Assembly (NCBI GenBank): GCA_964568285.1
Contig: CAZMPT010000001.1
Span: 1-34,968 of the forward strand
DNA from: an uncultured archaeon
GTDB taxonomy: Archaea > Thermoplasmatota > Poseidoniia > MGIII > CG-Epi1
Length of the DNA stretch: 34,968 nucleotides
Direction of reading: 5' to 3'
Made by a program: the position numbers and the translations under genes. This document shows positions 1 to 34,968 of the stretch, piece by piece; position 1 is the stretch's first letter, and the number at the start of each line of letters is the position of its first letter. The notes beneath the pieces were generated by a model. That model was given only the letters and a program-made list of their open reading frames with translations, was not told where the DNA came from and did no database searches.

Positions 1-270
1 AGGCTCTGGTTCAGGAAGTGGAGAAGGTTCAGGTTCCGGTTCAGGAGAAGGAACTGGCGAAGGTTCAGGCGAAGGTCAAGGAGAAGGAAGCGGTCAAGGA
101 CAGGGTGAAGGCTCTGGAGAAGGCCAAGGTGAGCCATCAGATTCAGGACAACCAATACCAAATGGGACAGGTCAAGCATCAGGTGGAACTCCTAGTAATG
201 GTGGTGGCCCACCCAGCCCTCCCGGACCTCCCGGCCCACCTAATGGAGAAGAGAATGACCTATTAGAACA
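1..270 (+). repeat. Imperfect tandem coding repeats (GGT TCA GGN GAA GGN type) encoding a Gly-Ser/Glu/Gln low-complexity tract, then PPSPPGPPGPP
   Basis: Frame 2 reads GSGSGSGEGSGSGSGEGTGEGSGEGQGEGSGQGQGEGSGEGQGEPSD...GGGPPSPPGPPGPPNGEEN with no stop. It is the N-terminal part of the CDS below. Confidence 0.8.
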
Positions 271-3751: not shown

Positions 3752-4603
3752 ATGAATTGGAAAAAAGAATGGAATAAATTTTCTGAAGGTGCAATTAAAG
3801 ATATGAAGAAGCACTCTGATAATACTCATGAAGAGCGTGAGTGGATGTGTTATGTTTATGAAGAAGATGGTATTTATCATTTAGGAAATGTAACTTATGG
3901 AGATGAATCTCGCATTGAGGTGAATCCTACTGCTAAAACTAACGAAGATGCATTAGTTAATGGACTAAGGCATAAAAAATGGACGATTCACGGACATCCA
4001 TTAAAAGATGGTAAGATTTATACAGGCCGACAATACTTTAGTTCTACCGATGTAATTGATGAGTTCATTAAATGTCGAGATAATGATGAATATGTGGTGC
4101 AATTCGTAGTGTATCCTCATCAACAAGTAGATGATAATACAGGACAAAGAGTGTTACATAATCGTGTCAGGGTCTTAGTATTCCCTGATTCGGCTACCGT
4201 AGTAGAAGCCATGAGAAAAGCCTCACCTAATTGTGACCCCTATTCCATTACCAGAGAATCTGGACAAAATCATTCCGTTCCAGACGGTAATGGTGGAACT
4301 ACTTTGGCTAATGATGCTGGGGCGGATTGGTTCGCTTTCCAAGAAGTATTAGGAGATATGGGATGGATGGGTATTGTAGATATTGAAGGGCCGGAATATG
4401 GAGCCGAGTCTTATAGTGCCGAAGATGATATGTTATCTCGCAGAAATATTGTTACGGCTATTGGTATGGCCTCAATTGCCGCCGTTATTTATGGTGTAGC
4501 CCGATATAATAATAAAGTTAGTGATGCTATTTCTAAGTTTGGTGTAGAAACCGTAGAAGGCAGCACTGAAGAATTAGAAGGATTCCATTGGTGGAAGAAA
4601 TAA
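3752..4603 (+). CDS. Possible JAB/MPN (JAMM) metalloprotease-like protein with a C-terminal TM helix
   Basis: Contains EEREW...WTIHGHP-x14-SSTD, which resembles the JAMM motif E...HxH...SxxD but with a longer spacer. The C-terminal hydrophobic helix is IVTAIGMASIAAVIYGV. The SD AGGTGAT lies 3 nt before the ATG and contains the upstream stop. Confidence 0.45.
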   Translation: MNWKKEWNKFSEGAIKDMKKHSDNTHEEREWMCYVYEEDGIYHLGNVTYGDESRIEVNPTAKTNEDALVNGLRHKKWTIHGHPLKDGKIYTGRQYFSSTDVIDEFIKCRDNDEYVVQFVVYPHQQVDDNTGQRVLHNRVRVLVFPDSATVVEAMRKASPNCDPYSITRESGQNHSVPDGNGGTTLANDAGADWFAFQEVLGDMGWMGIVDIEGPEYGAESYSAEDDMLSRRNIVTAIGMASIAAVIYGVARYNNKVSDAISKFGVETVEGSTEELEGFHWWKK

Positions 4604-8909: not shown

Positions 8910-8919
8910 TGTTATTTAA
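8910..8919 (-). promoter_or_regulatory. TATA-like promoter element, variant TTAAATAACA
   Basis: 20 nt to ATG 8890. Contains the TAA stop of gene 8916..9515. Confidence 0.6.
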
Positions 8920-9515
8920 GGTTGTGGTCGCATAATCCACTCGGTTATTGTTTCAATAATTTCACTGGCTGCGTGAGGCACATCTTCCAGTTTAAGATTG
9001 TGGAAAGTTAGATTAAATCCTTCCATGCCATCAAGGTCTGTTTCGGAAATCTCGTTCCTATTTTCCCAATGGGTTGCCCATCCATCTCCATACGCCTTTT
9101 CCAGTCGGCGTTTTTGTTCTTCTTCATCAACGGTTAATCGGATTGTGAACCATCCATCATCTTTTAGAGCCGTTAATTCATTTTGAAATCTCATATCATC
9201 ACAGATAACCATTTCGCAATTGGTGGTATCGTTTAGACCCTGAACTTGGTTGAGTAGTAAATCTACCCATACCGTATTTCTAATTTGACGAAATTGCTGT
9301 CCAATTTTTTGTAGCAACTCTCTATCTTTTTTATCAGAGGGCATCAAGAAGTAATCATAGGCTACTCTTTTAACTGGCGTTGCTAGAGATACTTTGGTTG
9401 CATGACTCTCATTGGGACAGTGTTTCAATACTTGTTTTAGTAATTCATCCGCAAGCGTGGTTTTGCCTACACCCATCTTTCCGCTAATGGCTATTCCAAC
9501 CAAGTAATCACTCAT
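8916..9515 (-). CDS. P-loop deoxynucleoside-monophosphate kinase-like protein (T4 gp1 family)
   Basis: Walker A is GKMGVGKT. RELLQKIGQQFRQIRNTVWV and CDDMRFQNE resemble the RRLMQALGTD...YW and PDTRQDHE/DVRFPNE motifs of phage dNMP kinases. It is leaderless, with the ATG 20 nt from the exact promoter motif. Confidence 0.65.
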   Translation of the reverse strand: MSDYLVGIAISGKMGVGKTTLADELLKQVLKHCPNESHATKVSLATPVKRVAYDYFLMPSDKKDRELLQKIGQQFRQIRNTVWVDLLLNQVQGLNDTTNCEMVICDDMRFQNELTALKDDGWFTIRLTVDEEEQKRRLEKAYGDGWATHWENRNEISETDLDGMEGFNLTFHNLKLEDVPHAASEIIETITEWIMRPQP

Positions 9516-10701: not shown

Positions 10702-10711
10702 TGTTATTTAA
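10702..10711 (-). promoter_or_regulatory. Promoter element, variant TTAAATAACA
   Basis: 20 nt to ATG 10682. Contains the TAA stop of the helicase gene. Confidence 0.65.
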
Positions 10712-12936
10712 GCATTCTGCCCTAATAAAGAAGATTGTTTGGCCCCATTAGAGCGGTTTCTATTAACCCTAATAGATGATTTAATATATTCAGGGATATA
10801 ATTTTGCAGTGGTTCGTTTCCGATTCCCTTACTATAATGAAACCAAAATTGAGGGTCTATGATATAATTATGTCCTGTGTCTTCGGCAGACCTCACAACT
10901 CTACCTAACATTTGCGTTAATTGATTAGCGGTTTGTAATTTATACCAAGAAGGATTTTCTTTCATTTTAATCGCAGTTCTTACATCTCCCATCGCCGGAA
11001 ATGGAATTTTTACAATGATACAAAAATCTACTGACTTTCCATCGTATCCTTGGTTAGCATAAGTAGAAATCAAAACCTTGTTGCTTTGAGAATTATCAAA
11101 ATTAGTAAATACTTCGTTGCGGGACTTGGCATTTTTATTATGTTGCACTAATCTTTGTTCTGCACTTTTAGAAATATAAGCAATGGCTTCTACTAATTGT
11201 TTCTCTAGTGAGTCAGTATAGGGGAGAATAAGTCCTTTCTTTCGAGGATACAAATTCATAATATCTACGATAGCCTCTGCGGTCTTCATCATTTCTTCGT
11301 TTGATTTAGAAGAATACGACATCTTTCCTCCTACCTTACTACTATAAATGGGTCGGTTACTAAGTGGGAAACTAGAATAGTTAATCTGGAGAAAAGCCGT
11401 ATCTTCTTTGTTTAGTCCTATTTCATCACAGAAAATGTCAATATTTCCGATAGTTCCTGACATAAATACCCTTACCTTACCTGTATTTAGCATTAATTCT
11501 TCTGAATAATCTTTGATGTCTAATGGCTTAAAACTAATATATTCAGGTGCAGTATCATCATTTGCTTGCCAAAGACAGTTTTTCCAATCCGTAGAAAGTA
11601 GTTGTGTTACTGATTTAATTTTACTTATGGTATTATACACATATTTGAGTTCATCTTCTTCGTAATCTTTCTTTCGTATCTTGCGTGATACCATATTACT
11701 AAGTGCTTCAAAATACGCAGCCAAAACAACTGCTCCTTTTCTTCGGAAATCATCAGTAGATTCTACTCGCACAGATGGAACTTTAGGAAATCCCCATCCA
11801 TTGTTAGTTGGTGTCCATGATTCTAATTTTTTACTGCGTTCTTTTTGAAGGATAGGTCTATCTTTTTCAGCAGATTCTAAAACTTGTTGATGAGTCGGAA
11901 GTTGTAGCAGCCTTTCTATTACTTTTACAGAAAAATCTAATGAATAAAAGCCAGTCATAGCCGATGCAAGTTGATGCGCCTCATCTACAATAAGGAAATC
12001 TCGTTGTTTTACCATCTTTGATGATTGATTCATCGCCATTAGATAACTCATATTTGAGATAAAGAATCGAGAATTTTGGGCGTTAGTTAAAGATTCATAA
12101 TATTCACACAAAGATGTTGGGTCCACACCCCAATTGTAGCCATTCTCTGTTTTTGGAACTTTATAGGGACAACTAAATCCTCTGATTAAACTACAAGGAG
12201 CCATACTTGCGGTGCAACCGCCGGTTTGCCAATTAAAACCGCCAATAGTGGCTCTATCAACTGCTTCTTGCGCTCGTTGTTTATTTAAACATCCGGGTTC
12301 TAAGTCTAAACTGCATTCGTAATTTCCTTTTCCCATAACACTTCTCATAAAAGGCATTTCTTTCATATATTGTTCTTGTAGCCCTTTCAAATGAGTTACA
12401 ATATAGGATTCCGCATTAAAAATCTTGGGAAGAACCATAGCCATAGCCGATTTTCCAGAACCAGTAGGACATTCTATGACGATATTTTTGTATCCTTCTT
12501 GGATTAAATCTACTGCATGAGGAATAACTTGCGCTTGTTCTGGTCTCGGAGTTGGAAAACGGGTGCCTTCAAAGTATTCTTGACATTCCCAAAGATTTTC
12601 ATCTTCTTGGTTAATAACTACCTGTTTGAATCCCAATGATTGGGGCTTACCAATGACAGCATTACCTATTTTTCCCAATTGTGAGTCATCAAACTCTACG
12701 GCTTCAATTATTTTATCTTCTTCTTCCTCTATCTCTGAAGTAACTAAGACTCCATCTACCGCCATTTTTAACTCCATGATATTACAAAATTTGGTGAGGT
12801 TTTCTATCTTGAGTCCACCTATTTTCATAGTCCCAGTATAACATTTACGAGATTTATTCCATTTGAGGTCGTAAGTTCCTCCTAATACTTCACGATAAGG
12901 CATGGTATTACCCCGAACATCTACGCTAACGAACAT
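10708..12936 (-). CDS. XPD/Rad3 (DinG)-family superfamily-2 helicase with an Fe-S cluster domain
   Basis: Walker A is ECPTGSGKS, the DEAH box is VDEAHQL, and motif VI is QMLGRVVRS. A Cys cluster lies between them (GNYEC..PGC..GGCTASMAPC..FSCPY..SLCEY). There is a roughly 130-aa N-terminal extension of unknown function. The start was set to Met7 (12936), exactly 20 nt from the exact motif at 12956. The track ATG at 12954 is only 2 nt from the TATA box. Confidence 0.85.
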   Translation of the reverse strand: MFVSVDVRGNTMPYREVLGGTYDLKWNKSRKCYTGTMKIGGLKIENLTKFCNIMELKMAVDGVLVTSEIEEEEDKIIEAVEFDDSQLGKIGNAVIGKPQSLGFKQVVINQEDENLWECQEYFEGTRFPTPRPEQAQVIPHAVDLIQEGYKNIVIECPTGSGKSAMAMVLPKIFNAESYIVTHLKGLQEQYMKEMPFMRSVMGKGNYECSLDLEPGCLNKQRAQEAVDRATIGGFNWQTGGCTASMAPCSLIRGFSCPYKVPKTENGYNWGVDPTSLCEYYESLTNAQNSRFFISNMSYLMAMNQSSKMVKQRDFLIVDEAHQLASAMTGFYSLDFSVKVIERLLQLPTHQQVLESAEKDRPILQKERSKKLESWTPTNNGWGFPKVPSVRVESTDDFRRKGAVVLAAYFEALSNMVSRKIRKKDYEEDELKYVYNTISKIKSVTQLLSTDWKNCLWQANDDTAPEYISFKPLDIKDYSEELMLNTGKVRVFMSGTIGNIDIFCDEIGLNKEDTAFLQINYSSFPLSNRPIYSSKVGGKMSYSSKSNEEMMKTAEAIVDIMNLYPRKKGLILPYTDSLEKQLVEAIAYISKSAEQRLVQHNKNAKSRNEVFTNFDNSQSNKVLISTYANQGYDGKSVDFCIIVKIPFPAMGDVRTAIKMKENPSWYKLQTANQLTQMLGRVVRSAEDTGHNYIIDPQFWFHYSKGIGNEPLQNYIPEYIKSSIRVNRNRSNGAKQSSLLGQNA

Positions 12937-12955
12937 ATATTTACTATCATCCATT

Positions 12956-13002: not shown

Positions 13003-13779
13003 ATGCAGGTATTTTGGGGAGTTCGTAATATTCCACGATTTGATAAAAAAACGGATGGTGGAGACGATGGATGGTTCAGTAATGATAGCACCAATGCTGC
13101 TGGAGTCGCAGACGGCGTAGGTTCGTGGAGAAAAAAGGGTATTAAAAGTGGTAATTTTTCTCGTTCCATGATGTCTAAGACCAATAATCGTATTGAACAA
13201 GGTATGAATCCTTATGATGCTTTACAAAGTGCATTTTTAGATTGGGAAGATAAAACAGGTTATGGCTCTACTACCTTTTGTGTAGCCCAGATGCTTGAAG
13301 ATATTTTGTATGTAGCCCAATTAGGCGATAGTTGTATTTTAGTTCAAAGAAATGGAAGGGTCGTTTATCAATCAAATGAACAAGAACACTTGTTTAATGT
13401 CCCCTATCAATTAGGTTCAGGTAATGAATCATTAGAGGATTCTTGGAGGTATCAAATTTCCCTTTTGCCCGGAGATACCATCATTATTGCTTCCGATGGA
13501 TTGTTTAATAATTTATATCGTAGTAAAATTCTCTCTATTATCAATAGTTATCCTATGGAATCGGAAAATCCCAATGCTTTATCGCAACAAATTGCAGACC
13601 AATTAGCCGGAGAAGCATACGACCAATCTATGTCTAATAAATATTGGTCACCATTTGCCCAACGCTCTTACGAAATGGGAATTACAGAAGCCTTTGATGT
13701 GGCTCAATTAGGTGGAAAGCCTGATGATATTACAGTGGTGGTAGGGCGTGTTTTATCTAAAGATGTTTGGAGAGATTAA
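13003..13779 (+). CDS. PP2C-family Ser/Thr phosphatase, PTC7/SpoIIE-like
   Basis: Motifs: GVADGVGSW, GSTTFCVA, AQLGDSC, EQEHLFNVPYQLG, IIASDGLFNN, GGKPDDITVVV. Leaderless, 21 nt from the plus-oriented TATA at 12973. Confidence 0.9.
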   Translation: MQVFWGVRNIPRFDKKTDGGDDGWFSNDSTNAAGVADGVGSWRKKGIKSGNFSRSMMSKTNNRIEQGMNPYDALQSAFLDWEDKTGYGSTTFCVAQMLEDILYVAQLGDSCILVQRNGRVVYQSNEQEHLFNVPYQLGSGNESLEDSWRYQISLLPGDTIIIASDGLFNNLYRSKILSIINSYPMESENPNALSQQIADQLAGEAYDQSMSNKYWSPFAQRSYEMGITEAFDVAQLGGKPDDITVVVGRVLSKDVWRD

Positions 13780-13979: not shown

Positions 13980-14525
13980 GTGGGGGAATTGAATAAAAAG
14001 AAACTGCGGATGGACAAGAGGAGGAAATCTCGTAGCCAGACCTATCCTAAAACTTATTCTCTGCGCCAATTTCAGGACCTTGTTCTATCTTTTTTTGACC
14101 GAAGAATCAGGCATTATGCATTAAGCCATATTATAAATTATTGTGGTGTTTTAACATATGAACCCAAGGTAGTTCGTTTAATTCAACAGTATCCCACAGA
14201 ATATAGGAATTTATTTAATGATAGTTGGTGGAGAAGTCAGCACAATCCCGAAGAACTTGAAATGCGTAAGCATCCAACTCGTGGTCGGCAGTGGATAGGT
14301 AGTCGTTTAACGACAGAAAGAAATGACCTGATATTTAATGTGTTCCATCAGGAAGGAAGTATAAAACTATCCTCAAGTCCACAACTTTGTCGGTTGTGCT
14401 ACAATGATGTTCCTGCCTTTTTGACAGAAAAACAAGCGGGCTTCTGTGTAGAATGTTGGCGCAGGTATGCACACCCATATCTGAACGATGTTATAGCCTA
14501 TTCGCTTGATTCAAACCCTAATTGA
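13980..14525 (+). CDS. Basic protein with a C-terminal CxxC...CxxC zinc ribbon
   Basis: The zinc ribbon reads CRLCYNDVPAFLTEKQAGFCVECW and the N-terminus is Lys/Arg-rich. Start candidates are GTG 13980, TTG 13989 (after GGGGTGGGGG) and ATG 14010. Confidence 0.55.
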   Translation: MGELNKKKLRMDKRRKSRSQTYPKTYSLRQFQDLVLSFFDRRIRHYALSHIINYCGVLTYEPKVVRLIQQYPTEYRNLFNDSWWRSQHNPEELEMRKHPTRGRQWIGSRLTTERNDLIFNVFHQEGSIKLSSSPQLCRLCYNDVPAFLTEKQAGFCVECWRRYAHPYLNDVIAYSLDSNPN

Positions 14526-15613
14526 TTCATGGCTTCATCGGCGGTCATATCACCCTTCTCAACCGCTTCAGTTAGGACTCCAAATGGATAACATTCATCA
14601 CGGAAGTCGCAGTAGGCACATTCCCAATTACCGGCCCCATTCACATCTGACGCACCTGCTAATGGATTACGCTGAATCTTCGGCCAATTAGTCTTAGCAA
14701 TTTGGCCTCTTGCCCACATCTGTTCTAATACTTCTTCAGAATGTCTTAGGTTATATCCTCGTGCGGGTGGTTCTTCGGATTCTAATTCCAATTGCATCTC
14801 TACAAAATTACTAATGATGTCCTCCACAGTAAATTCTCCTACGGATGCATAAGGCTCATTGGTAGATGCCTCCTTCTCCATACAGAAAACTTGGTCGGAA
14901 ACAATTGGGTTGTCATCCAAATCAGTAACAATGACACGACCTGAATATCCATCTTCCAATCTAATTTTGAAAACCTTAGTCAATCCTGAATCAACAGCCA
15001 AATAATGTAGTTCGGCGTGGTCTATGGTTACTCCATAATAGTCCTCGTATGGCTTACGAATTGCCAAATAGACCGCCATTTGCATTACATATCCATGCTT
15101 GGGCTTTCCATTTCTAAACTCTTTGTTTCCCATAGCCTCTCTTGCACCATAGCCTCTAATGGTTTTGGTGTCCACAATAACTGCTTCCGTGCGGGAGATA
15201 GAAATAATGTTGCCCTCATCATCCAATTCAGCCTTTCTGATGATTTGGTCCACTTCACCAGAAATATGAACTCGGACATCTCCGCCATATCCTGTTAATT
15301 CAGTAATATCTTCTTTGATTTTGATGTTGCTATCAATTAGTAATCCTTGACGCTCAAAATGATGAGTCAATGACGCTTCCATAGCGTGTCCGGTTTCAAA
15401 GATAACAAATGAACGGTCATCAGGAGGGTTGGTGCGTGGTGCGCCTGTTTTACTATACCAGTTTTGACGATGGCACTTACCAATGTATTCAGGTTCTCCC
15501 CAATGGTTATTGCGAGTAACACCCGCACCTGTTGGGTTCAATCCGCCAAGTGATACTCGGAAGGGTCGCTTTTCCATGCTTCTAATTGCTGCTTTGATAT
15601 AATTAGGATTCAT
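14498..15613 (-). CDS. Cas4/RecB-family PD-(D/E)xK nuclease with a 4Fe-4S Cys motif
   Basis: Motifs: N-terminal GKCHRQNWY, ETGHAME, GEVDQI, IVDTKT (DxK), QMAVYL (QxxxY), and C-terminal CAYCDFRDEC (Cx2Cx5C). An unusually long insert of about 150 aa precedes the C-terminal Cys triad. Confidence 0.75.
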   Translation of the reverse strand: MNPNYIKAAIRSMEKRPFRVSLGGLNPTGAGVTRNNHWGEPEYIGKCHRQNWYSKTGAPRTNPPDDRSFVIFETGHAMEASLTHHFERQGLLIDSNIKIKEDITELTGYGGDVRVHISGEVDQIIRKAELDDEGNIISISRTEAVIVDTKTIRGYGAREAMGNKEFRNGKPKHGYVMQMAVYLAIRKPYEDYYGVTIDHAELHYLAVDSGLTKVFKIRLEDGYSGRVIVTDLDDNPIVSDQVFCMEKEASTNEPYASVGEFTVEDIISNFVEMQLELESEEPPARGYNLRHSEEVLEQMWARGQIAKTNWPKIQRNPLAGASDVNGAGNWECAYCDFRDECYPFGVLTEAVEKGDMTADEAMNQLGFESSE

Positions 15614-20485: not shown

Positions 20486-21052
20486 CTAATCTAATCTTAT
20501 TTCTCGCCACTCAACCTTTCCAGCCTTTACCAAATCTCTAATTCTTCGTTGCTTGGTGGTGAGATTGGACTTCCCTGATTTAACATCTAACATTACGATA
20601 GTTCCGTTTTCTAAATTTTCTTTGGTATCTTGATACCAGTTGAACACCAAATAATCAATAGGCTGTCCTAAAAAACTCCAATCTTTTGAATCCCATGCCG
20701 GGTCAATTTCATTATGTTGAAGAAAAGGACACCATTTTTCTAATAATAGTCCTCTTTGAGTGTGTGCGGAGGCGGCCCTACCCTTTTGTTTCTTCATTTC
20801 AGTAGTCATAGATTCTACATCTTCGTGTAAAACCTCAATTTGGGTTTCCATTTCACTATTACTATTCCTTAGATTACCTATTTCTACTATGTAATCTGAT
20901 AACATTGCTTCCATAGTATCAGAAGATTGAGCCATCTGAAGTTCTACAATCTTCAGTTCGGCTTCATGCAGAGAACGAAATAATTCTCGTGCCTTGAACC
21001 AAAGATACCCTGCTATGAGAGTCAAACCACTGACTAGGTAATACTCCCACAT
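20486..21052 (-). CDS. Membrane-anchored endonuclease related to archaeal Holliday-junction resolvase (COG4741 / Endonuc_Holl-like)
   Basis: An N-terminal TM helix (YYLVSGLTLIAGYLWF) and a coiled coil are followed by C-terminal GQPIDYLVF...IVMLDVKSGKSNLTTKQRRIRDLVKAGKVEW. Leaderless, 20 nt from motif 21072. Confidence 0.6.
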   Translation of the reverse strand: MWEYYLVSGLTLIAGYLWFKARELFRSLHEAELKIVELQMAQSSDTMEAMLSDYIVEIGNLRNSNSEMETQIEVLHEDVESMTTEMKKQKGRAASAHTQRGLLLEKWCPFLQHNEIDPAWDSKDWSFLGQPIDYLVFNWYQDTKENLENGTIVMLDVKSGKSNLTTKQRRIRDLVKAGKVEWREIRLD

Positions 21053-21406: not shown

Positions 21407-22363
21407 TCAAGGCTCTGTTGGGCTATCGGGGTCCAATCCCAAAGTTTGGCAGATTTCTTTGTATCGGTTTCGGATAGTAACCTCGGTCACACCAGCAGCC
21501 ATGGCTACATCTCTTTGTGTGCGTGTCACGCCCTTAATACGAGTAGCCAAATATACTGCGGCAGCAGCCAAACCAGTTGGCCCTCTTCCCGTTCCCAATG
21601 CTGTAACTGATTCAAAACTCAATATACGAGTGGCTAATGATTCAGTCTGTGCATCCAATTGTAGTTGAGATGCAAAACGAGGCACATATTCTGTGGGTGG
21701 TGTTGGAAGAATACGAATACCCAAATCCTTCATAACACGCTTGTAAGTGCGCCCAATTTCTTTACGGCCTGTGCGAGAATGCTGTCCAATTTCATCAAGG
21801 GTGCGACTCATACGATTCAATCTGCAAGCCGCATGGATGCAAGCCGCAACTACTCCCTCTATGGAACGACCACGAACCAACTTGCGTTCTACGGCTCGCT
21901 TGTAAATTCTTGCGGCATTTTCTCTAACAGAACGAGGCAAAGCCATTTGTGAACCCAAACGGTCAAGTTCATTCAGAGCAGTAACCAAATTACGCTCTTT
22001 AGAATCACGAATACGGGTGCGCTGATGCTGACGGCGCAAACGGTTATACTTCCGCCTTTGAGAAGCAGACAAGGTTCCACCAGCCCCATCTTTGTAAGCA
22101 GGAGCCATATCAGTAGTCAAACCACCGTCATGGTATAAGTCTGACTTGGGCATACCCCATCGTTCTCCTTCCATGCCTGACCCATCAGCAAATACTCTAT
22201 TATCCTTGCCCAAATCTACTGTCCATTCGGGCATCACCAATCCACATTCTTTACAATGTGGTTCATCGGCTTCAAAATCAATACTTGTTGATTGGCATTC
22301 AGGACAAATATAGGCATCATAATGGAAGTCATCTGCGACCTCTTGTTTCTTTTCATCGTTCAT
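21407..22363 (-). CDS. tfb: Transcription initiation factor TFIIB homolog (TFB)
   Basis: An N-terminal zinc ribbon (CPECQS...CKECG), a B-reader/linker, and two cyclin-like repeats (SIEGVVAACIHAACRL... and GPTGLAAAAVYLATRI...). The start was set to ATG 22363, with the SD GAGGGTGA 4 nt upstream and the exact promoter motif 33 nt upstream. The track start at 22396 is a TTG lying inside the TATA box. Confidence 0.92.
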   Translation of the reverse strand: MNDEKKQEVADDFHYDAYICPECQSTSIDFEADEPHCKECGLVMPEWTVDLGKDNRVFADGSGMEGERWGMPKSDLYHDGGLTTDMAPAYKDGAGGTLSASQRRKYNRLRRQHQRTRIRDSKERNLVTALNELDRLGSQMALPRSVRENAARIYKRAVERKLVRGRSIEGVVAACIHAACRLNRMSRTLDEIGQHSRTGRKEIGRTYKRVMKDLGIRILPTPPTEYVPRFASQLQLDAQTESLATRILSFESVTALGTGRGPTGLAAAAVYLATRIKGVTRTQRDVAMAAGVTEVTIRNRYKEICQTLGLDPDSPTEP

Positions 22364-22395
22364 AGTTTCACCCTCTGTGCGTTCATAGTGCGACA

Positions 22396-22405
22396 ACCTA
22401 TTTAA
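22396..22405 (-). promoter_or_regulatory. Promoter element, exact TTAAATAGGT (tfb promoter)
   Basis: 33 nt to ATG 22363, with GAGGGTGA in the leader. Contains the TAG stop of 22398..22733. Confidence 0.7.
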
Positions 22406-30021: not shown

Positions 30022-30843
30022 ATGGGTATAGAAGATGTCGCCAAGTTCGCCAAGTTTGGAAGGGGTGCTGGCGATGTAGGCACCGCTTTTATGAAAACCC
30101 AAAAAGGATTGGCGATGGTTGATGCTGCGGTTACGGCAGGGAAGGTTGGTGGTGATGCCGCATCTATGGCTAAATATGCATCTGAACAGGCTGCTATCAT
30201 CAATAAGGGTGTTTTAGAACGAATGGGTAGATTTACCAAACAGTTAGATAAGGCTTCATCCAATAAATTGATGGGAATGGGTAAAACCCTTAGCGAACAA
30301 GTTGGCACTTATTCGGCTCAATTGGCAAAAAAATTAGGTGACCCATCGGCGGCGGGTGAATTATCTAAGTTAATCAATCCCAAAGTAACCAGTATTTACA
30401 AGAAATCTATGAAGATGTCTAAGAAAAACTTGATAGGTAAGACTGATGAGGGTGCAGCACTAACTGGTAGAGCAGCAGATGATGTGGCAGAAGCCAATGC
30501 CACTTTTGGCTCTAGAATATTGAATGGTATTTGGCCTCCCGGAAGAGGTTCTGTGATTCTTGCTGGTATGGGTATCTTGATTTGGGCTGGACCTTTGGAT
30601 GCATTAGCAGGTCTAACTACTACCCTTGAACGATTCAATTTCCTCCCTGAAGGGACAACTAATGGTTTAATTGCATTTTGGGGTAAATTAAGAGGATTTA
30701 TTACGGCTGTATTGTGGGCTGCTATTCTCTTAGGGACATTCTGGGTGATGAATATGGTATTTGGTGCTGCAAAAACAGCAAAAGGTGTTGTAGATGCTGT
30801 TACCGACAATATAGTTCCAGATGCAGAGCCATCTGGAGCGTGA
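30022..30843 (+). CDS. Basic membrane protein (273 aa; helical N-domain plus 2-3 C-terminal TM helices)
   Basis: TM segments are SVILAGMGILIWAGPL and FITAVLWAAILLGTFWVMNMVFGAA. Leaderless, 21 nt after TTGAAATAGT (29992-30001). Confidence 0.7.
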   Translation: MGIEDVAKFAKFGRGAGDVGTAFMKTQKGLAMVDAAVTAGKVGGDAASMAKYASEQAAIINKGVLERMGRFTKQLDKASSNKLMGMGKTLSEQVGTYSAQLAKKLGDPSAAGELSKLINPKVTSIYKKSMKMSKKNLIGKTDEGAALTGRAADDVAEANATFGSRILNGIWPPGRGSVILAGMGILIWAGPLDALAGLTTTLERFNFLPEGTTNGLIAFWGKLRGFITAVLWAAILLGTFWVMNMVFGAAKTAKGVVDAVTDNIVPDAEPSGA

Positions 30844-31984
30844 TAACTTGTCAGATAGTTGGGACTTTGTAATTGCTCCAGAGGATTTGGAAACTACTAA
30901 TACTGCCGGTGCATTATTACAAATGCTCCCTGATGGCAGCATTGCCAATAAGTCTGGTCAATGGATTTCAACAAGAGGTTATGAGGTAGAAGATAATTGG
31001 TGCAGAACTGGTTTGGCAGCCAAGTTGGTGCATATTGATGATAAAGGAAAATCAAAGAATGTTGTAGTTACTGGAGATTCTGGAGAATATGATTTAACTG
31101 CTCCCGAAGGCAATAATAAGTTTAGAATATTTGTGAAAACAATTTCTGGGACTGATGAGGGTGATGAACCATGGATTGCTGGGGCTTGGGATTCAGATGC
31201 TTTATGTTCGGCACAAGATTTTACTGATATGGTCTGCCAAGAAAATGTGATTGGAGAATTCAGAGGTCGTTCTGATAGAGTGACTGTGAATATCAGACAA
31301 CTTAACATTCCTTATTTTGCAGCATTGGAAGCAAAAGTTCTTAGTGATTCAGAGAATCCGGAGCGTCTATTACGCAATCCAGAGTTGTTATATCAAAAAA
31401 CTAGGGAGTTAATAGACCCGAATATGGTTATGGCCCTACGAAGAAGTAAAACATGGGTTACAGACGGAAATGGTGATGGCACATGGGATTTTAATATACC
31501 AGACGATTGGCCTCCCGGCCCCATATTTATTACAGTAGAGTATGGATATGACGCAGCCAGTGAAAAAAGCACAGGCGAACTTGGGATGGAGATGTTAGAG
31601 AGGGCTGCAATACTAGTTACTATTGGGTTGGAAATAGCACTCGCAATTCTTTGTTGGCCCTGTGGTGTAGTTTATTTCTTGGCTGTTGATGTGTGGGAAA
31701 TTGCCCAACTGTTTGCTCAAGTTCCAATGGGGGGACAAAACAAATATGGTTGCACATTCCCCCCTATCACCCACGCAACTCCTCTGTTGGCCGCTTATCA
31801 GATAGACTATAAGGGTTCGGAAGCAAAAATCTATGAAGATATGGATGCTGGGGCGAAACAGTTTATGGCACAGTTGGTAAAAGATGAAGAAGTTAGGAAA
31901 CAAAATATGTTGCTATCTTTAGGAGTCGTTGGAGGTGCAACTTTATTAGTTGCAGGTTTTTGGTTAGCATTCGGAGGGGAATAA
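30821..31984 (+). CDS. Membrane protein (large N-terminal domain, C-terminal TM helices)
   Basis: TM segments are AAILVTIGLEIALAILCWPCGVVYFLAV and LLSLGVVGGATLLVAGFWLAF. The ATG at 30821 lacks an SD. The alternative is TTG 30848, 3 nt after GGAGCGTGAT. Confidence 0.65.
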   Translation: MQSHLERDNLSDSWDFVIAPEDLETTNTAGALLQMLPDGSIANKSGQWISTRGYEVEDNWCRTGLAAKLVHIDDKGKSKNVVVTGDSGEYDLTAPEGNNKFRIFVKTISGTDEGDEPWIAGAWDSDALCSAQDFTDMVCQENVIGEFRGRSDRVTVNIRQLNIPYFAALEAKVLSDSENPERLLRNPELLYQKTRELIDPNMVMALRRSKTWVTDGNGDGTWDFNIPDDWPPGPIFITVEYGYDAASEKSTGELGMEMLERAAILVTIGLEIALAILCWPCGVVYFLAVDVWEIAQLFAQVPMGGQNKYGCTFPPITHATPLLAAYQIDYKGSEAKIYEDMDAGAKQFMAQLVKDEEVRKQNMLLSLGVVGGATLLVAGFWLAFGGE

Positions 31985-31986
31985 AG

Positions 31987-32745
31987 ATGCCAGCAGAGAA
32001 TGAAAACTTAGAAGAACAACGACAAGAGAACTTTTTGAAAGCCTATAATGATGGAAAAAGCCATGTCGCTGGTGAAGCATATTGGGATGAACCTGATTTT
32101 ACTATTTTTGATGTATTAGATATGGAGGATGAACATGAATATCCATGGGTTTGTGACACATTTCACCAATATGCGATAGGCACTAGTCAGAAAAATGCAG
32201 ATGAGAATGATTTGAGATTATGGAAGAACGATATTATTTTTGGTTTTCAGGCTAGTGATACCAGTGGATGGTGGAGTGCGGATTTGGGAACATCAATGCA
32301 TTATAGCAGCGACCACAAAGTTCGTATTGATATTTATCACACAGATTCTAAGGGAAGGGTGGATAAAGTAATATCAAATTATGATTTAATGGGTGGGGAT
32401 GCAGATAATGGTATTAGATACCTTCCTTTTTATCCATCTAAAATAGGGAAATATACTGTCTGGATTAATAGAGTCCTATCAGCAGGAAGTTGTGGTGTTC
32501 CCATGGAAGGAACTAACAATTTTTGGAAATACGAGATAGAAATAAAACCTCCCGCAGAAGGTGATGAGATACCTGATGGTATTGATGTGGATTATGATGC
32601 ACTTAGGGAAGAATTTGAACAGTATCAATTAAATATGGCTTTAATGGGTGGGGAAACAGTATCTCCGATTACCCCTCTGGCACTATTAGGAACTGGTATA
32701 GTAGTGTCTTTAATAGCATATGGTATGTTTTCTTTATTCAAATAA
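31987..32745 (+). CDS. C-terminally anchored membrane protein (252 aa)
   Basis: The ATG at 31987 lies 6 nt after GGAGGGG. The track start at 31960 is a TTG/GTG-type extension. The C-terminal TM helix is LALLGTGIVVSLIAYGMFSLF. Confidence 0.65.
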   Translation: MPAENENLEEQRQENFLKAYNDGKSHVAGEAYWDEPDFTIFDVLDMEDEHEYPWVCDTFHQYAIGTSQKNADENDLRLWKNDIIFGFQASDTSGWWSADLGTSMHYSSDHKVRIDIYHTDSKGRVDKVISNYDLMGGDADNGIRYLPFYPSKIGKYTVWINRVLSAGSCGVPMEGTNNFWKYEIEIKPPAEGDEIPDGIDVDYDALREEFEQYQLNMALMGGETVSPITPLALLGTGIVVSLIAYGMFSLFK

Positions 32746-33627
32746 ATGAGTGTGTCGAGACCAAACTTCTTGCATTGAAGAAGTAGGAATAATTTTTCCA
32801 TCCCATCGCTCTGTTTCCCAACTAAACAAAATACTTGCCACTTCATATGGAGAAGAAAAATCGTTTTCATTTAATTTCTTTATATCTTCTTCAGTTAAAG
32901 GCCAAACGGGAAGTCCAGTCTTCCCATTCAAAGAATATGGACATCTAATTATGCCCTGACGATGTGCTGGAGCCAAATCATAACGATATAATGGCATTTT
33001 TGTTGCTAATATGGCTATTTTTTGAATCTGGAAACGATATTCTTTCCCTAAGTTACGCAGAGGGTCCCACTGCTCTACGGTTTTTAAATTAAATCCACAT
33101 AATTTCTCTGCTTCTTCGGCAAATAACCAGACATGGAATCCTTTGTTACCACTAAATACTATTTCGGGTGAGTATCCCAAATTTACAAGATAATTAAAAA
33201 TCTTGTAAGAATTTTCCCATGCCACTCCTAAATCTTGGTCATCTATGTCCCAAACCATATCTTTTCCTTGCCATATGTTATGGTAAGTTTCTATGCCAAT
33301 TATGTTAGGGTCTAAATAAGTTCTCCATAATTCGGCATATTTTTCTCTTTCTTCTTTATTCCAATCACTGGAACTTTGTTCTCGCAGTCTTGGTGGTAAC
33401 TCTACTGCGTCCCAATTAATATGATTCGTTCCAATATAAACAGAAGTTGGTCTTTTATCTGCATCTAAAATATTTAACCACTTTAATGTGTCTTCAGAGT
33501 GATTGATTCTACACTTGCGTATTCCAAATACACCAACTTTTTCATCATCTATGAGCCATTTTACTTCTCGATGGCGAGCCTGATGCCAAATAGCGGTGCC
33601 AATTTCCCGCCGACTATACCATTCCAT
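32734..33627 (-). CDS. Archaeo-eukaryotic primase (PriS-like AEP) catalytic subunit
   Basis: Motif I is MVWDIDDQD, motif II is SGNKGFHVWLF, and motif III is DLAPAHRQGIIRCPYSLNGKTGL. The N-terminal PTSVYIGTN is typical of PriS. The start was set to ATG 33627 (Met8), exactly 20 nt from motif 33647. Confidence 0.8.
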   Translation of the reverse strand: MEWYSRREIGTAIWHQARHREVKWLIDDEKVGVFGIRKCRINHSEDTLKWLNILDADKRPTSVYIGTNHINWDAVELPPRLREQSSSDWNKEEREKYAELWRTYLDPNIIGIETYHNIWQGKDMVWDIDDQDLGVAWENSYKIFNYLVNLGYSPEIVFSGNKGFHVWLFAEEAEKLCGFNLKTVEQWDPLRNLGKEYRFQIQKIAILATKMPLYRYDLAPAHRQGIIRCPYSLNGKTGLPVWPLTEEDIKKLNENDFSSPYEVASILFSWETERWDGKIIPTSSMQEVWSRHTHLFE

Positions 33628-33634
33628 ACTATAT

Positions 33635-34069
33635 TTACAGCCCATCACCTATTTCAATTGGTAGTAGTCTGAAGTTTATGGTCTGAAATTGTTCTGGTGA
33701 ATCTTCATTTAAGTGCCAAAACTCTGGTGAATTCTCAAGTTCTGTTATTGCATATACAGGAAACCCTATCTCGTCCAAATCCTTGTAGGAGTCATCTTCC
33801 AGTTCATCAATGAGGTTAGTTATTGCTTCACGAAGTAGCATCGAGTAGTGAATAAAAATAAATTCACTAGATTCCACACTATAACTATTCATTTCGCCAT
33901 CGCTGCCACGAAAATCATGCGCTATTTCTACGAGAAATTCTGCCAACAATGTGTTTTTGTAGTAAATCCAGAGGTTGGTGTATGCTAAATTTCCAAATTC
34001 ATCCTCATCCTCATCAAGAAAGGTGTGTTCAAACTTATATTTGAAGTTGAATATTTTAAATTCGGGCAA
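33635..34069 (-). CDS. Acidic hypothetical protein (144 aa), TTG start
   Basis: There is no in-frame ATG for about 60 codons. The TTG lies 5 nt after GGGTGAT, which contains the PolX TGA stop. Confidence 0.55.
   Translation of the reverse strand: MPEFKIFNFKYKFEHTFLDEDEDEFGNLAYTNLWIYYKNTLLAEFLVEIAHDFRGSDGEMNSYSVESSEFIFIHYSMLLREAITNLIDELEDDSYKDLDEIGFPVYAITELENSPEFWHLNEDSPEQFQTINFRLLPIEIGDGL
33647..33656 (-). promoter_or_regulatory. Promoter element, variant TGAAATAGGT, embedded in the 3' end of the upstream CDS
   Basis: 20 nt to ATG 33627 of the primase. It lies in the codons for IEIGDGL of 33635..34069. Confidence 0.6.
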
Positions 34070-34075
34070 ATCTAA

Positions 34076-34879
34076 TCACCCATATCGGGTTATTTCCAAA
34101 AACGCCTTCATCGCTTGTGCTTCGCTAATAATTCCTAATTGGATGTTGGCTTCTAATGCAAGTAGGGCTTCTTGTAACCTTATTTCTTTCATCATTACAT
34201 TATTTATGACCGCTTTTTCTAATGGTCCAGCGGTTTTGTAGGTATCAGGAAAGATAACTGCACTGTTAAATTCTTGGAGTTCTTCTGCATCCATTTTTAG
34301 ACCAATTCCAATGTGCATTTGTGCTTTTGTAATCTTTCCATTTTTGTAAAGCCACCTCAATTCATCGTCCGAGATTTCCCCTAAGTGTCTTGTAATTGTT
34401 TCAGCACGGCGTTCTGTGGCTGGTCGGAAATTCTTGCCTAAAATTTCATATATTTCTTCTTCGGTGGCACCGCCGAGATATTCATTAGTTTCTCTATCAA
34501 ATATACCATACTCATTTAATTTCATGCCACGACTTTTTGCTGCTCTTCTGATTCCAATATTGTATCCTGCCGGTCCAGTAAAATAAAGTAATGCTGCACC
34601 CAAGGCCCTTGGGGTAGTGACTCTAATATCTACTTTAACCCCATCTACAATTATCTGTGTCTTTTTTTCACCGACCCAACTTACTGAAGAATATTCGCCA
34701 GATAAACTCTCTACAATATTAGGTAAAGTTTCTCTCGGTTTTAGGATAACAACTATATCTAAGTCTCCGGGGTCTTCCCTTCCTCTTCTGAAACTTCCCG
34801 CAACTTCAATAAATTCGCAAGAAGGTTGTAATAAACCAGTCATTTTTGTCGCTAATGCTTCTGCTTGTGGTCGAGTCAT
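34076..34879 (-). CDS. Family X DNA polymerase (Pol beta-like palm plus thumb) with a C-terminal extension of about 110 aa; the N-terminus may lie beyond the window
   Basis: Motifs: GSFRRGREDPGDLDIVV, VDIRV, LGAALLYFTGPAGYNIGIRRAAKSRGMKLNEYGIF, ATEEEIYEILGKNFRPATERR. The reading frame stays open for all 29 codons from 34880 to the window edge. Confidence 0.85.
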   Translation of the reverse strand: MTRPQAEALATKMTGLLQPSCEFIEVAGSFRRGREDPGDLDIVVILKPRETLPNIVESLSGEYSSVSWVGEKKTQIIVDGVKVDIRVTTPRALGAALLYFTGPAGYNIGIRRAAKSRGMKLNEYGIFDRETNEYLGGATEEEIYEILGKNFRPATERRAETITRHLGEISDDELRWLYKNGKITKAQMHIGIGLKMDAEELQEFNSAVIFPDTYKTAGPLEKAVINNVMMKEIRLQEALLALEANIQLGIISEAQAMKAFLEITRYG

Positions 34880-34968
34880 CCTTTCTTCTTCGGGTCGGTC
34901 TTCGGCGGCGAATGATTCTGCATTTTTCTCTCTTTCTTTTGGAAGGCTAATTTGAATATCCTTTCCAC

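What the first reader, a model, noticed from the sequence alone, without database searches (positions are those of the whole stretch)
32734..34968. PolX, an acidic 144-aa protein and a PriS-like primase form a compact cassette, and the PolX may be a minimal ASFV-like form
A family-X polymerase palm plus thumb (GSFRRG..DLDIVV..VDIRV..YFTG..NEYGIF) is followed by an SD/TTG-coupled 144-aa acidic protein. A PriS-type AEP primase (DxD, SGxGFHVW, RxPYSxNxKTG) follows with its own leaderless promoter. No family-B or family-D replicative polymerase is present in the window.

If the ATG at 34879 is the true start, the PolX lacks the 8-kDa and fingers domains, as does the 174-aa ASFV PolX. It instead carries a novel C-terminal domain of about 110 aa. 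The frame is, however, open for all 29 codons up to the window edge, so a longer N-terminus cannot be excluded.

A repair-type PolX paired with a primase in an archaeal mobile element is unusual. It could be a gap-filling or primer-extension module.
Basis: partly seen in the sequence, partly recalled or inferred. Interest (0 to 1): 0.65.

Follow-up and report, generated by a model that had tools for sequence, protein, structure and literature searches.

The report
Repair polymerase beside primase, archaeal virus
The three genes are real, but the "minimal" polymerase is the cut-off end of a 565-residue patchwork repair protein that works with an upstream DNA-end-cleaning enzyme, and the whole region belongs to a large marine archaeal virus-like element whose close relatives encode a family-D replicative polymerase.

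Summary
On the minus strand lie a family-X polymerase (PolX) palm+thumb, a 144-aa acidic ORF and an archaeo-eukaryotic primase (AEP).

The PolX ORF is cut by the window edge. Contigs that read through give 565 aa. ATG 34879 is a conserved internal Met, not the start.

The extra 290 N-terminal residues are not an 8-kDa or fingers domain. They are zinc-ribbon and helical modules. So the catalytic core is ASFV-like in domain content, but it sits inside a shuffled multi-module protein.

A LigD-type 3'-phosphoesterase (PE) lies directly upstream. It is translationally coupled here and fused to PolX in relatives. I read PE+PolX as a module that cleans blocked 3' ends and fills short gaps.

The 144-aa gene is a lineage-specific orphan insertion. 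The AEP has its own conserved promoter-like element. It is also conserved in distant relatives that have no adjacent PolX, so it is probably the element's primase.

The window covers only part of the element, and related contigs are 135-190 kb. Syntenic relatives encode the PolD large subunit about 8 kb beyond window position 1. PolX is therefore an accessory repair enzyme, not the replicase.

Verdict: a new variant of a known kind.

The parts
34076..34968 (-). 3' part (296 codons plus stop) of a 565-aa mosaic PolX gene. The 5' 269 codons lie beyond the window edge.
   Evidence: L004 and L007 read through at 100% identity. The full protein is P0001.
34901..34921 (-). Acidic junction AESFAAE (residues 285-291) just upstream of the core. 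It belongs to the disordered linker, residues 277-292.
   Evidence: pLDDT is below 50 in the AF2 model. Hydrophobic-x-A-E junctions recur at module borders in relatives. The assembly chimera L003 joins at window 34909.
34406..34897 (-). PolX catalytic core, palm+thumb (residues 293-456). Carries GSFRRG, the catalytic Asp residues D337/D339/D382, and YFTG...N405...R409.
   Evidence: Pfam. PDB: T. thermophilus PolX 1.9e-18 and ASFV PolX 4e-13. hhalign aligns 297-455 with palm+thumb only, E 1.1e-27. Foldseek.
34877..34879 (-). It is the internal Met-299 of the conserved ERMTR in the first palm helix.
   Evidence: Present in 112 of 120 relatives, and none of the nine relative N-termini printed begins there.
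34283..34399 (-). Module X (residues 459-497), a helical insert that is optional in relatives.
   Evidence: Module mapping. It is absent in P0017 and P0019.
34079..34282 (-). Module Y (residues 498-565), a two-helix module that travels with the core.
   Evidence: Found in 105 of 120 relatives, on either side of the core, 419 aa downstream to 326 aa upstream. There is a weak hint that it derives from the fingers subdomain.
33635..34069 (-). 144-aa acidic orphan gene with a TTG start, SD-coupled to the PolX stop. It is a lineage-specific insertion.
   Evidence: A search of 1.84 billion representatives found only itself. It is absent between PolX and the AEP in L011, L014 and L114. pI and codon usage.
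33644..33658 (-). Conserved ATTGAAATAGGTGAT. The TATA-like TTGAAATA lies at -30 to -23 from the AEP ATG. Putative promoter for a leaderless or short-leader AEP mRNA.
   Evidence: The same 15-mer lies at the same distance in L011 and L114, where it overlaps the end of PolX. L014 has TTGATATAGG. In the window it lies inside the 3' end of the 144-aa ORF. Promoter function is inferred.
32734..33627 (-). Stand-alone AEP primase/primase-polymerase, 297 aa from ATG 33627.
   Evidence: 14 homologues share the motifs WDIDD, SGxKGFH, D223 and RxPYS. AF2 pLDDT 83. Foldseek: LigD PolDom 5e-7 and PriS 8e-7. Syntenic in IMG/VR contigs of 36 kb and 150-166 kb.

Best explanation
The finding covers the 3' end of a same-strand gene string: Cys-rich 544-aa protein, LigD-type 3'-phosphoesterase (PE), PolX, 144-aa orphan, AEP. 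The string lies in a large marine archaeal virus-like element. At least 67 kb is traceable for this element, and related contigs are 135-190 kb.

PolX is a 565-aa patchwork protein. It has N-terminal zinc-ribbon and helical modules of unknown role, then an acidic disordered linker. Next comes a catalytically intact palm+thumb core of about 165 aa, the same domain content as ASFV PolX. Two helical modules, X and Y, follow.

PE and PolX are one functional unit. The PE stop codon and the PolX start are 1-4 nt apart with an SD in between, and in relatives the two are fused into one polypeptide. The likely mechanism is as follows. PE removes blocking 3'-phosphates or 3'-ribonucleotides. The PolX core then adds dNMPs to fill short gaps. 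Together they repair single-strand breaks, base-excision intermediates or broken ends in the element's DNA. This parallels the PolX-PHP fusion of bacterial and archaeal PolX, with PE taking the place of PHP.

The AEP is a separate transcription unit with its own TATA-like element. It belongs to the family's conserved block (AEP ... TFB ... Hjc-like nuclease). It is most likely the element's primase, working with the MCM-like helicase and PolD encoded elsewhere on the element. The 144-aa acidic gene is a recent insertion of unknown role.

Shown: the gene structures, domain content, catalytic residues, fusions, synteny and conservation. Inferred: the enzymatic activities, the substrates, the promoter, and which proteins work together.
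For: - True gene length: contigs reading through the window edge.
- No 8-kDa, fingers or PHP domain. Pfam finds only palm and thumb in P0001 and in all 120 listed relatives. hhalign against canonical PolX aligns only 297-455 with 158-314. Foldseek alignments span about 160-185 columns.
- Intact active site.
- PE. Pfam LigD_N 1.9e-22. PDB matches to stand-alone PE proteins and LigD PE domains run from 1.1e-21 to 1.5e-14.
- PE-PolX fusions: P0007, P0009, P0011, P0017, P0021.
- SD and start-stop coupling.
- AEP independence. The upstream 15-mer is conserved regardless of coding context. The AEP is syntenic in L017-L020, where no PolX lies within 10 kb (within about 3.4 kb, up to the contig end, for L018). 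In L019 and L020 the upstream slot holds UvdE, C5 methylases or GmrSD.
- Replicase elsewhere. PolD DP2 matches three Pfam DP2 domains at 2.5e-113, 4.7e-95 and 2.5e-78. It is 74-99% identical across 14 related loci. In the five loci checked for flanking synteny it lies next to genes syntenic with the window's left flank. Two contigs, identified by their lengths (134,644 and 139,339 nt), carry both a PolX of this clade and DP2.
- MCM-like helicase.
- Archaeal context: TFIIB 1e-41 and an Hjc-like nuclease.
Against: - No activity has been measured.
- No ligase, Ku, AP endonuclease or glycosylase was found in the sequence available, so the repair pathway is incomplete as seen (crude motif scan).
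- PolX and the AEP are tightly adjacent on one strand in four related lineages (window, L011, L014, L114). That could reflect cooperation rather than chance.
- The AEP fold matches NHEJ LigD polymerases slightly better than PriS.
- PolD was shown in syntenic relatives whose flanking genes are mostly 47-90% identical. It was not shown on a contig identical to the window.
- No capsid or terminase gene was identified, so 'virus' rests on IMG/VR listing and gene content.
Confidence: 0.6

Rival explanations
1. Dispersed LigD-like end-joining kit. PE, PolX and the AEP act together on double-strand breaks or on the ends of a linear genome. This would resemble the separate Pol, PE and Lig proteins of Methanocella NHEJ, with PolX as an added dNTP-using gap filler.
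For: - PE matches PDB entries that I recall, from established knowledge, to be archaeal stand-alone PE proteins (3p4h, 3p43, 5dmp).
- The top Foldseek hit of the AEP is the M. tuberculosis LigD polymerase domain (5e-7, TM 0.46-0.48), and the Methanocella NHEJ polymerase also scores (8e-6).
- Two AEP homologues carry Pfam LigD_Prim-Pol.
- The same-strand order PE-PolX-AEP occurs in four lineages.
- The genes lie 3-16 kb from one end of several 150-166 kb contigs.
- An unrelated IMG/VR contig (L021) fuses ligase-like, AEP and PE modules in one 1992-aa protein.
Against: - No Ku or ATP-dependent ligase was found in the window, in the 3.4 kb upstream (L004), in the 7.9 kb to the contig end in L114, or in the other family loci (Pfam scans).
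- The AEP is conserved where PE and PolX are not adjacent and has its own promoter-like element.
- PriS matches are equally strong.
Confidence: 0.2
2. Polyprotein or toolkit reading. The mosaic proteins are cut at the recurring hydrophobic-x-A-E junctions, or they act as enzymes tethered on flexible linkers. Cutting would release a free ASFV-like PolX of about 165-180 aa, together with PE and other modules.
For: - Modules (CWKC, PE, core, X, Y, DUF5872-like, others) recur in many orders. The borders stay the same and usually read F/M/L-x-A-E.
- The linker in front of the core is predicted to be disordered.
- Neighbouring mosaic proteins in relatives carry Cu/Zn superoxide dismutase and pterin dehydratase domains.
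Against: - No protease was identified.
- Only one other ORF in the window, 3752-4603, carries a clear doubled copy of the motif (YGAESYSAE); the other matches to the looser pattern are single.
- Conserved borders are equally expected from recombination between modules.
- No proteomic data exist.
Confidence: 0.12
3. A minimal PolX plus a primase form a self-contained primer-synthesis and extension module that replicates an element lacking any PolB or PolD.
For: - No PolB or PolD gene lies in the 35-kb window.
- PolX and the AEP are adjacent.
Against: - PolX is 565 aa, not minimal.
- The element extends at least 28.7 kb beyond window position 1.
- Relatives with the same gene order carry PolD DP2 there, plus an MCM-like helicase.
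Confidence: 0.04

Closest known systems
ASFV DNA polymerase X (174 aa; PDB 1jaj, 5hrb)
   Same: The catalytic core has palm+thumb only, with no 8-kDa or fingers domain. Sequence match is 4e-13 over ASFV residues 31-170. It is a virus-encoded repair-type polymerase.
   Different: ASFV PolX is a free-standing 174-aa protein of a eukaryotic virus. Here the core is embedded in a 565-aa multi-module protein, paired with PE, in an archaeal element. The core is closer in sequence to bacterial PolX (1.9e-18). ASFV-specific features such as the 5'-phosphate pocket were not tested.
Bacterial/archaeal PolX with a PHP domain (e.g. Thermus thermophilus PolX, PDB 3au2/3b0x)
   Same: This is the best sequence and fold match for palm+thumb. 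Both join a gap-filling polymerase to a second enzyme. That the PHP domain processes 3' ends is from established knowledge.
   Different: The 8-kDa, fingers and PHP domains are all absent here. The 3'-end enzyme is a LigD-type phosphoesterase, encoded upstream or fused at the N-terminal side. Only distant relatives (43% identity or less) occur among 185,579 species-representative genomes.
LigD / archaeal NHEJ set (Pol-AEP, PE, Lig, Ku; e.g. Methanocella paludicola, M. tuberculosis LigD)
   Same: The PE domain is clearly of this family. A stand-alone AEP of about 300 aa with a LigD-PolDom-like fold lies nearby.
   Different: No ligase or Ku was found. In the fusions a PolX, not the AEP, is joined to PE. 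The AEP cannot be assigned to the LigD clade rather than PriS.
Archaeal/eukaryotic PriS primase small subunit (PDB 1zt2, 4bpu)
   Same: It shares AEP motifs I-III. The profile match to S. solfataricus PriS is 2.3e-5, and Foldseek gives 8e-7. It is conserved next to replication and transcription genes in the family.
   Different: It falls below the Pfam cut-off for DNA_primase_S (17.8 against 26.8 bits). The sequence shows no CxxC zinc motif. No PriL partner was recognised.

Membership tests
Family X DNA polymerase (catalytic core) | Palm with three catalytic aspartates and the GS-x-RRG dNTP-binding motif | tested here: met
   GSFRRG, D337, D339 (GDLDIVV) and D382 (VDIRV) align with T. thermophilus PolX and canonical PolX. 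They are invariant in 31 relatives.
Family X DNA polymerase (catalytic core) | Thumb with YFTG and the N/R minor-groove contacts | tested here: met
   Pfam DNA_pol_B_thumb 7.8e-19 over profile positions 1-62 of 63. LYFTGP, N405 and R409 are invariant.
Canonical full-length PolX (Pol beta-like, or bacterial PolXc-PHP) | N-terminal 8-kDa domain | tested here: not met
   Pfam gives no hit at E up to 0.1. hhalign leaves canonical columns 1-157 unmatched. PDB phmmer with residues 1-291 finds nothing.
Canonical full-length PolX (Pol beta-like, or bacterial PolXc-PHP) | Fingers (helix-hairpin-helix) subdomain directly in front of the palm | tested here: not met
   Residues 277-292 in front of the palm are a disordered acidic linker. 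hhalign finds no match there. Caveat: in relatives with Y directly in front of the core, the alignment extends into fingers columns 111-157. Y alone scores only 0.2% probability.
Canonical full-length PolX (Pol beta-like, or bacterial PolXc-PHP) | C-terminal PHP domain | tested here: not met
   No PHP family appears in P0001 or in the precomputed Pfam lists of the 120 relatives.
ASFV-type minimal PolX | Palm+thumb only, as a free-standing protein of about 174 aa | tested here: not met
   The domain content of the core fits, but the ORF is 565 aa. The relatives listed are 324-988 aa. None of the nine relative N-termini printed begins at the core Met.
ASFV-type minimal PolX | Thumb 5'-phosphate pocket and error-prone dG:dGTP insertion | not testable with these tools
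   This needs structures with DNA, or biochemistry.
LigD-type NHEJ system | 3'-phosphoesterase (PE) domain | tested here: met
   L004:2019-2609, just outside the window. Pfam LigD_N 1.9e-22. PDB 3p4h 1.1e-21 and 5dmp 1.5e-14.
LigD-type NHEJ system | AEP polymerase domain of the LigD/PolDom clade | tested here: inconclusive
   Foldseek gives LigD PolDom 5e-7 against PriS 8e-7. Pfam LigD_Prim-Pol scores 0.074, below its cut-off. The profile search against PDB gives PriS 2.3e-5 and the NHEJ polymerase 0.3.
LigD-type NHEJ system | ATP-dependent DNA ligase and Ku | tested here: not met
   Neither was found by Pfam among the window ORFs, L004, L114 or the L027 flanks. A crude ligase-motif scan was negative. 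Most of the 135-190 kb element was not seen.
PriS-type replicative primase | AEP catalytic motifs I (DxD), II (SGxGxH) and III (hhD) | tested here: met
   WDIDD, SGNKGFHVW and D223 are invariant in 14 homologues.
PriS-type replicative primase | Zinc-binding motif and a PriL partner | tested here: inconclusive
   The sequence has no CxxC motif. No PriL family was hit in the window. Conserved neighbours of 198 and 268 aa carry zinc-ribbon-like hits below cut-off, and their role is unknown.

The most novel reading that the evidence does not exclude
The window belongs to a lineage of abundant 135-190 kb marine archaeal virus-like elements that I could not find described. They carry their own PolD replicase, an MCM-like helicase, an AEP primase and TFB. 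They also carry a fast-shuffling set of patchwork proteins. An ASFV-like palm+thumb PolX is one interchangeable unit in these proteins. Others include a LigD phosphoesterase, a superoxide dismutase and other modules. In this reading PE+PolX, possibly with the AEP, form a 3'-end-healing and gap-filling system without Ku or ligase. Module Y would be the displaced remnant of the fingers subdomain.
Probability: 0.25. Interest if true: 0.8.

Novelty: new variant of a known kind. Interest (0 to 1): 0.55.

Why it matters
PolX enzymes reduced to palm+thumb are best known from ASFV, as far as I know. Here the same reduction defines a clade of more than 1,800 proteins. No member more than 43% identical occurs in 185,579 species-representative genomes. 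In this clade the core behaves as a portable module.

The repeated fusion to a LigD phosphoesterase gives a clear, testable prediction. A 3'-end-cleaning enzyme and a gap filler would act in tandem, much like the PolX-PHP pairing in bacteria.

The context may matter more than the cassette. The elements appear to encode a family-D polymerase. I did not find PolD reported for a virus in the papers I could search. If these elements are viruses, that bears on how archaeal replication genes spread.

Tried and rejected
- Minimal 267-aa PolX starting at ATG 34879: rejected.
- Standard full-length PolX upstream: rejected.
- Circular closure of the window: L004's upstream 3.4 kb and L026/L027's left flank share nothing with each other or with the opposite window end.
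- Homologues of the 144-aa protein: only itself among 1.84 billion representatives. Pfam gives DUF6228 at 0.17, which is noise.
- Known relatives in GenBank phage and archaeal-virus records. PolX matches only bacterial phages at 26-36% identity. The AEP has no match. TFB matches at 29% or less.
- Virus hallmark genes: Pfam and PHROGs on the large window ORFs found no capsid, portal or terminase.
- Host assignment: no tRNA in the window, and source names give no organism.
- Walking in IMG/VR with the left-flank proteins found nothing.
- Module Y or the N- and C-terminal regions against PDB sequences: no meaningful hit.
- Literature: seven full-text searches found no description of this family, of a PolX-PE pairing in archaeal viruses, or of virus-encoded PolD. 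Two papers were read. Subscription journals are not covered.
- The hydrophobic-x-A-E motif as a feature of the whole element: no clear excess. Only one other window ORF, 3752-4603, has a doubled copy.


Full report
WHAT IS IN THE WINDOW

Three co-directional ORFs lie on the minus strand of 32734-34968.

The first ORF (34076-34968, open to the window edge) matches Pfam DNA_pol_B_thumb (3.6e-19) and DNA_pol_B_palm (2.2e-05).

The second ORF (33635-34069, 144 aa) starts at TTG, 6 nt after the PolX stop. GGTGA lies 8 nt upstream. Its pI is 4.08, and its codon usage is gene-like only in this frame.

The third ORF is an archaeo-eukaryotic primase (AEP). WDIDD, SGNKGFHVW, D223 and RCPYS are invariant across its 14 homologues. 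All homologues begin MEWYSRRE, so the start is ATG 33627 (297 aa) rather than GTG 33648.

THE POLX GENE IS TRUNCATED BY THE WINDOW

I looked up the 144-aa protein by exact sequence and found 17 contigs. L004, L007 and L009 read through the window edge at 99.9-100% identity. L004 and L007 give a complete ORF of 565 aa, or 570 aa from an upstream GTG. This protein is P0001.

ATG 34879 encodes Met-299. It lies in the sequence ERMTR (DRMTR in one) at the start of the first palm helix. That Met is present in 112 of the 120 closest relatives, and none of the nine relative N-termini printed begins there. The 267-aa reading is therefore wrong.

THE N-TERMINUS IS NOT AN 8-KDA OR FINGERS REGION

- Pfam finds only palm and thumb in P0001. 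The precomputed Pfam lists of all 120 listed relatives show only palm, thumb and, in five, LigD_N.
- I built a profile of canonical bacterial and archaeal PolX running from the 8-kDa domain through the thumb. It aligns with P0001/P0002 only over residues 297-455 against canonical columns 158-314 (E 1.1e-27). Canonical columns 1-157 stay unmatched.
- The AF2 model (mean pLDDT 64, core 80-90) shows the following, in order:
  - a zinc ribbon (about residues 10-50);
  - a helical bundle (54-114);
  - a second Cys pair;
  - a poorly predicted stretch;
  - a disordered acidic linker (277-292);
  - the palm+thumb core;
  - C-terminal helices.
- Foldseek hits to Pol lambda, Pol beta and T. thermophilus PolX span only about 160-185 columns.
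- Residues 1-291 and the C-terminal 111 residues have no PDB sequence relatives.

The active site is intact: GSFRRG, D337, D339, D382, YFTG, N405 and R409.

A MOSAIC FAMILY

The homologue search returned 1,840 proteins. The core of about 165 aa is 65-89% identical among the closest relatives. The proteins that carry it are 324-988 aa long, with many different architectures.

Recurring modules are:
- an N-terminal MSCWKCGSG unit;
- the LigD phosphoesterase;
- module X;
- module Y;
- a DUF5872-like unit;
- others.

Module borders usually read hydrophobic-x-A-E, for example NAEDRPEEERMTR.

Module Y accompanies the core in 105 of 120 proteins. It lies on either side, from 419 aa downstream to 326 aa upstream. 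Y alone does not match canonical PolX (0.2% probability). In proteins where Y sits 7 aa in front of the core, however, the hhalign alignment extends into fingers columns 111-157. I treat this as a weak hint that Y derives from the fingers subdomain.

Many assemblies end at exactly window position 34968. One chimeric contig (L003) joins at 34909, at the AEDRPEEE border. This fits co-existing strains that differ in their N-terminal modules.

Among 185,579 species-representative genomes, only ordinary PolX genes at 43% identity or less were found. GenBank phage records hold nothing closer than 36%.

THE UPSTREAM PARTNER

Directly upstream in L004 lies a 196-aa protein with a LigD-type 3'-phosphoesterase domain. 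Pfam scores it at 1.9e-22. PDB 3p4h scores 1.1e-21, and 5dmp scores 1.5e-14.

Its stop codon and the PolX start are 1-4 nt apart, with GAGGTGA in between. In P0007, P0009, P0011, P0017 and P0021 the PE domain and the PolX core are fused in one polypeptide. In L114 the PE is instead fused to the upstream Cys-rich protein.

Gene fusion plus translational coupling is the strongest functional link in this locus. The enzymology of LigD PE is established: it has 3'-phosphatase and 3'-ribonuclease activity. So is that of PolX, a short-gap filler. On that basis the likely job is healing blocked 3' ends and then filling the gap.

THE 144-AA GENE AND THE PRIMASE

The 144-aa protein has no relative among 1.84 billion representative proteins.

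In L011 and L114 (AEP 75-77% identical) and in L014 (AEP 51% identical), PolX is followed directly by the AEP, 21-26 nt apart. The sequence ATTGAAATAGGTGAT lies 17-31 nt upstream of the AEP ATG in the window, L011 and L114. L014 has TTGATATAGG in the same place. In L011 and L114 this stretch overlaps the last PolX codons. In the window it lies inside the 3' end of the 144-aa ORF. A sequence conserved regardless of what it encodes, with a TATA-like core at -30 to -23, fits an archaeal promoter for a leaderless or short-leader mRNA. This is an inference.

The AEP model (pLDDT 83) matches the M. tuberculosis LigD polymerase domain (5e-7) and S. solfataricus or human PriS (8e-7 to 2e-6) about equally. 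Sequence profiles slightly favour PriS. Viral structure hits are generic AEPs.

The AEP is conserved at 36-37% identity in four IMG/VR contigs, one of 36 kb and three of 150-166 kb. There it heads the same gene block as in the window: AEP, then the 198-, 268- and 210-aa proteins, TFB, and an Hjc-like nuclease. No PolX lies within 10 kb (about 3.4 kb, up to the contig end, for L018). The upstream slot holds UvdE and GmrSD/HNH genes in L019 and C5 methylases in L020.

I conclude that the AEP belongs to the conserved core of the element. PolX and PE occupy a variable slot for repair and modification genes next to it.

THE ELEMENT

The window encodes:
- an archaeal TFB (1e-41);
- an Hjc-like nuclease;
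- an XPD-like helicase;
- a PP2C phosphatase;
- a PD-(D/E)XK nuclease;
- a P-loop kinase-like protein.

Most other ORFs have no match.

A 43.7-kb contig continues 28.7 kb beyond window position 1. It encodes an MCM-like helicase (Pfam MCM 1e-4, below cut-off; PHROG DNA helicase 1.1e-12).

Relatives share this left-flank gene order, with the flanking proteins mostly 47-90% identical (the MCM-like helicase 58-81%). They encode a 1162-aa PolD large subunit (DP2) 2.5-4 kb past the next gene. It matches three Pfam DP2 domains at 2.5e-113, 4.7e-95 and 2.5e-78, and it is 74-99% identical across 14 related loci. Two contigs, identified by their lengths, carry both a PolX of this clade and DP2. They are WLWE01000022.1 (134.6 kb, with P0004) and Ga0209645_1000002 (139.3 kb, with P0021).

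By synteny, DP2 should begin about 8 kb beyond window position 1. I could not fetch that stretch of this exact element.

Related contigs cluster at 135-190 kb and occur widely in marine datasets, including Tara. I found no capsid gene, no host link and no published description.

VERDICT

The locus is best read in three parts:
1. an accessory PE+PolX repair unit, with an ASFV-like core in a new modular setting;
2. an orphan acidic gene inserted after it;
3. the element's own primase, a separate transcription unit.

The NHEJ-like reading remains open at about 0.2, because the AEP and PE are of the right kinds. It lacks Ku and ligase in everything I could see.

The 'PolX plus primase as replicase' reading is contradicted by PolD on the same element family.

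Noticed in passing
L127:13564-17052 (+). Also L118, L121-L126, L128, L130, L131, L133, L136, L138. By synteny, about 8-11.5 kb beyond window position 1.: The element family encodes a family-D DNA polymerase large subunit (DP2, 1162 aa). It matches three Pfam DP2 domains at 2.5e-113, 4.7e-95 and 2.5e-78. In the five loci checked it lies next to genes syntenic with the window's left flank. No DP1 was seen beside it. I found no report of virus-encoded PolD in the searchable papers.
   Followed up: partly
Related contigs: BERG17-1 scaffold_12 (165,802 nt), UEXM01000032.1 (168,910), IMGVR_UViG_3300046163_000066 (166,176), Ga0181419_1000002 (142,232), and protein clusters seen on contigs up to 190,857 nt: The window is a fragment of a family of 135-190 kb marine elements. 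They are common in Tara and other ocean datasets and some are listed in IMG/VR. No capsid, portal or terminase gene, no tRNA and no host signal was found. PolX and the AEP lie 3-16 kb from one end of several of the large contigs.
   Followed up: partly
P0001-P0120; L127:10001-13051; L162:9998-12760; window 34901-34921: The family has patchwork proteins built from shuffled modules with conserved hydrophobic-x-A-E borders. Besides PolX and PE, the modules include Cu/Zn superoxide dismutase, pterin-4a-carbinolamine dehydratase, DUF5872 and a GmrSD-like domain. Whether the borders are recombination joints, flexible tethers or protease sites is unknown.
   Followed up: partly
window 34909-34968; L001, L002, L005, L008 and L010 all start at 34968; L003:1-98: Independent assemblies break at the same base inside the PolX gene, about 60 nt from the AEDRPEEE module border. 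One contig carries a GC-rich chimeric join exactly at that border. This suggests co-existing strain variants with different N-terminal modules.
   Followed up: partly
L027:2983-4680 (-), about 1.6-3.3 kb beyond window position 1: A divergent MCM-like helicase of 565 aa. Pfam MCM scores 1e-4, below cut-off, and PHROG DNA helicase scores 1.1e-12. It is 58-81% identical in syntenic relatives.
   Followed up: partly
window 21407-22396 (-), 20486-21052 (-), 10708-12954 (-), 13003-13779 (+), 14498-15613 (-), 8916-9515 (-): The window encodes an archaeal TFB (TFIIB repeats, 1e-41), an Hjc-like endonuclease (1.4e-17) and an XPD/Rad3-like helicase. It also encodes a PP2C phosphatase, a weak PD-(D/E)XK nuclease hit and an AAA_18 P-loop protein. 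TFB and the Hjc-like gene are conserved at 42-55% identity in the IMG/VR relatives.
   Followed up: partly
window 1-2407 (+); full gene at L027:5474-8656: A 1060-aa protein whose N-terminal part is a long Gly/Ser/Glu-rich low-complexity tract (GSGSGEGSG...). It has no family match. Assemblies vary here, with gene calls of 233+841, 1024 and 1060 aa.
   Followed up: no
L019:6018-6920, L019:2767-4119, L020:5821-8482: In distant relatives the slot upstream of the AEP holds other DNA repair and modification genes instead of PolX and PE. L019 has a UvdE UV endonuclease (2.1e-50) and a GmrSD-HNH nuclease. L020 has three C5 cytosine methylases.
   Followed up: partly
L021:5789-11767 (IMGVR_UViG_3300009503_000022, 110 kb): An unrelated viral contig encodes a 1992-aa fusion protein. 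By reading the sequence, it has a ligase-like KxDG motif, a GGDEF-like region, an AEP domain (VFSGSKGFHVY) and a sigma-like HTH. By tblastn at 38% identity, it also has a LigD-type PE domain. It looks like a LigD-style kit in a single chain.
   Followed up: no
window 30022-32745 (+): Three ORFs (273, 387 and 261 aa) converge on the AEP. At least two end in a hydrophobic, membrane-anchor-like tail. They are conserved in L014 and L114, and one of them in L018, with no family match. They may be membrane or particle proteins.
   Followed up: no
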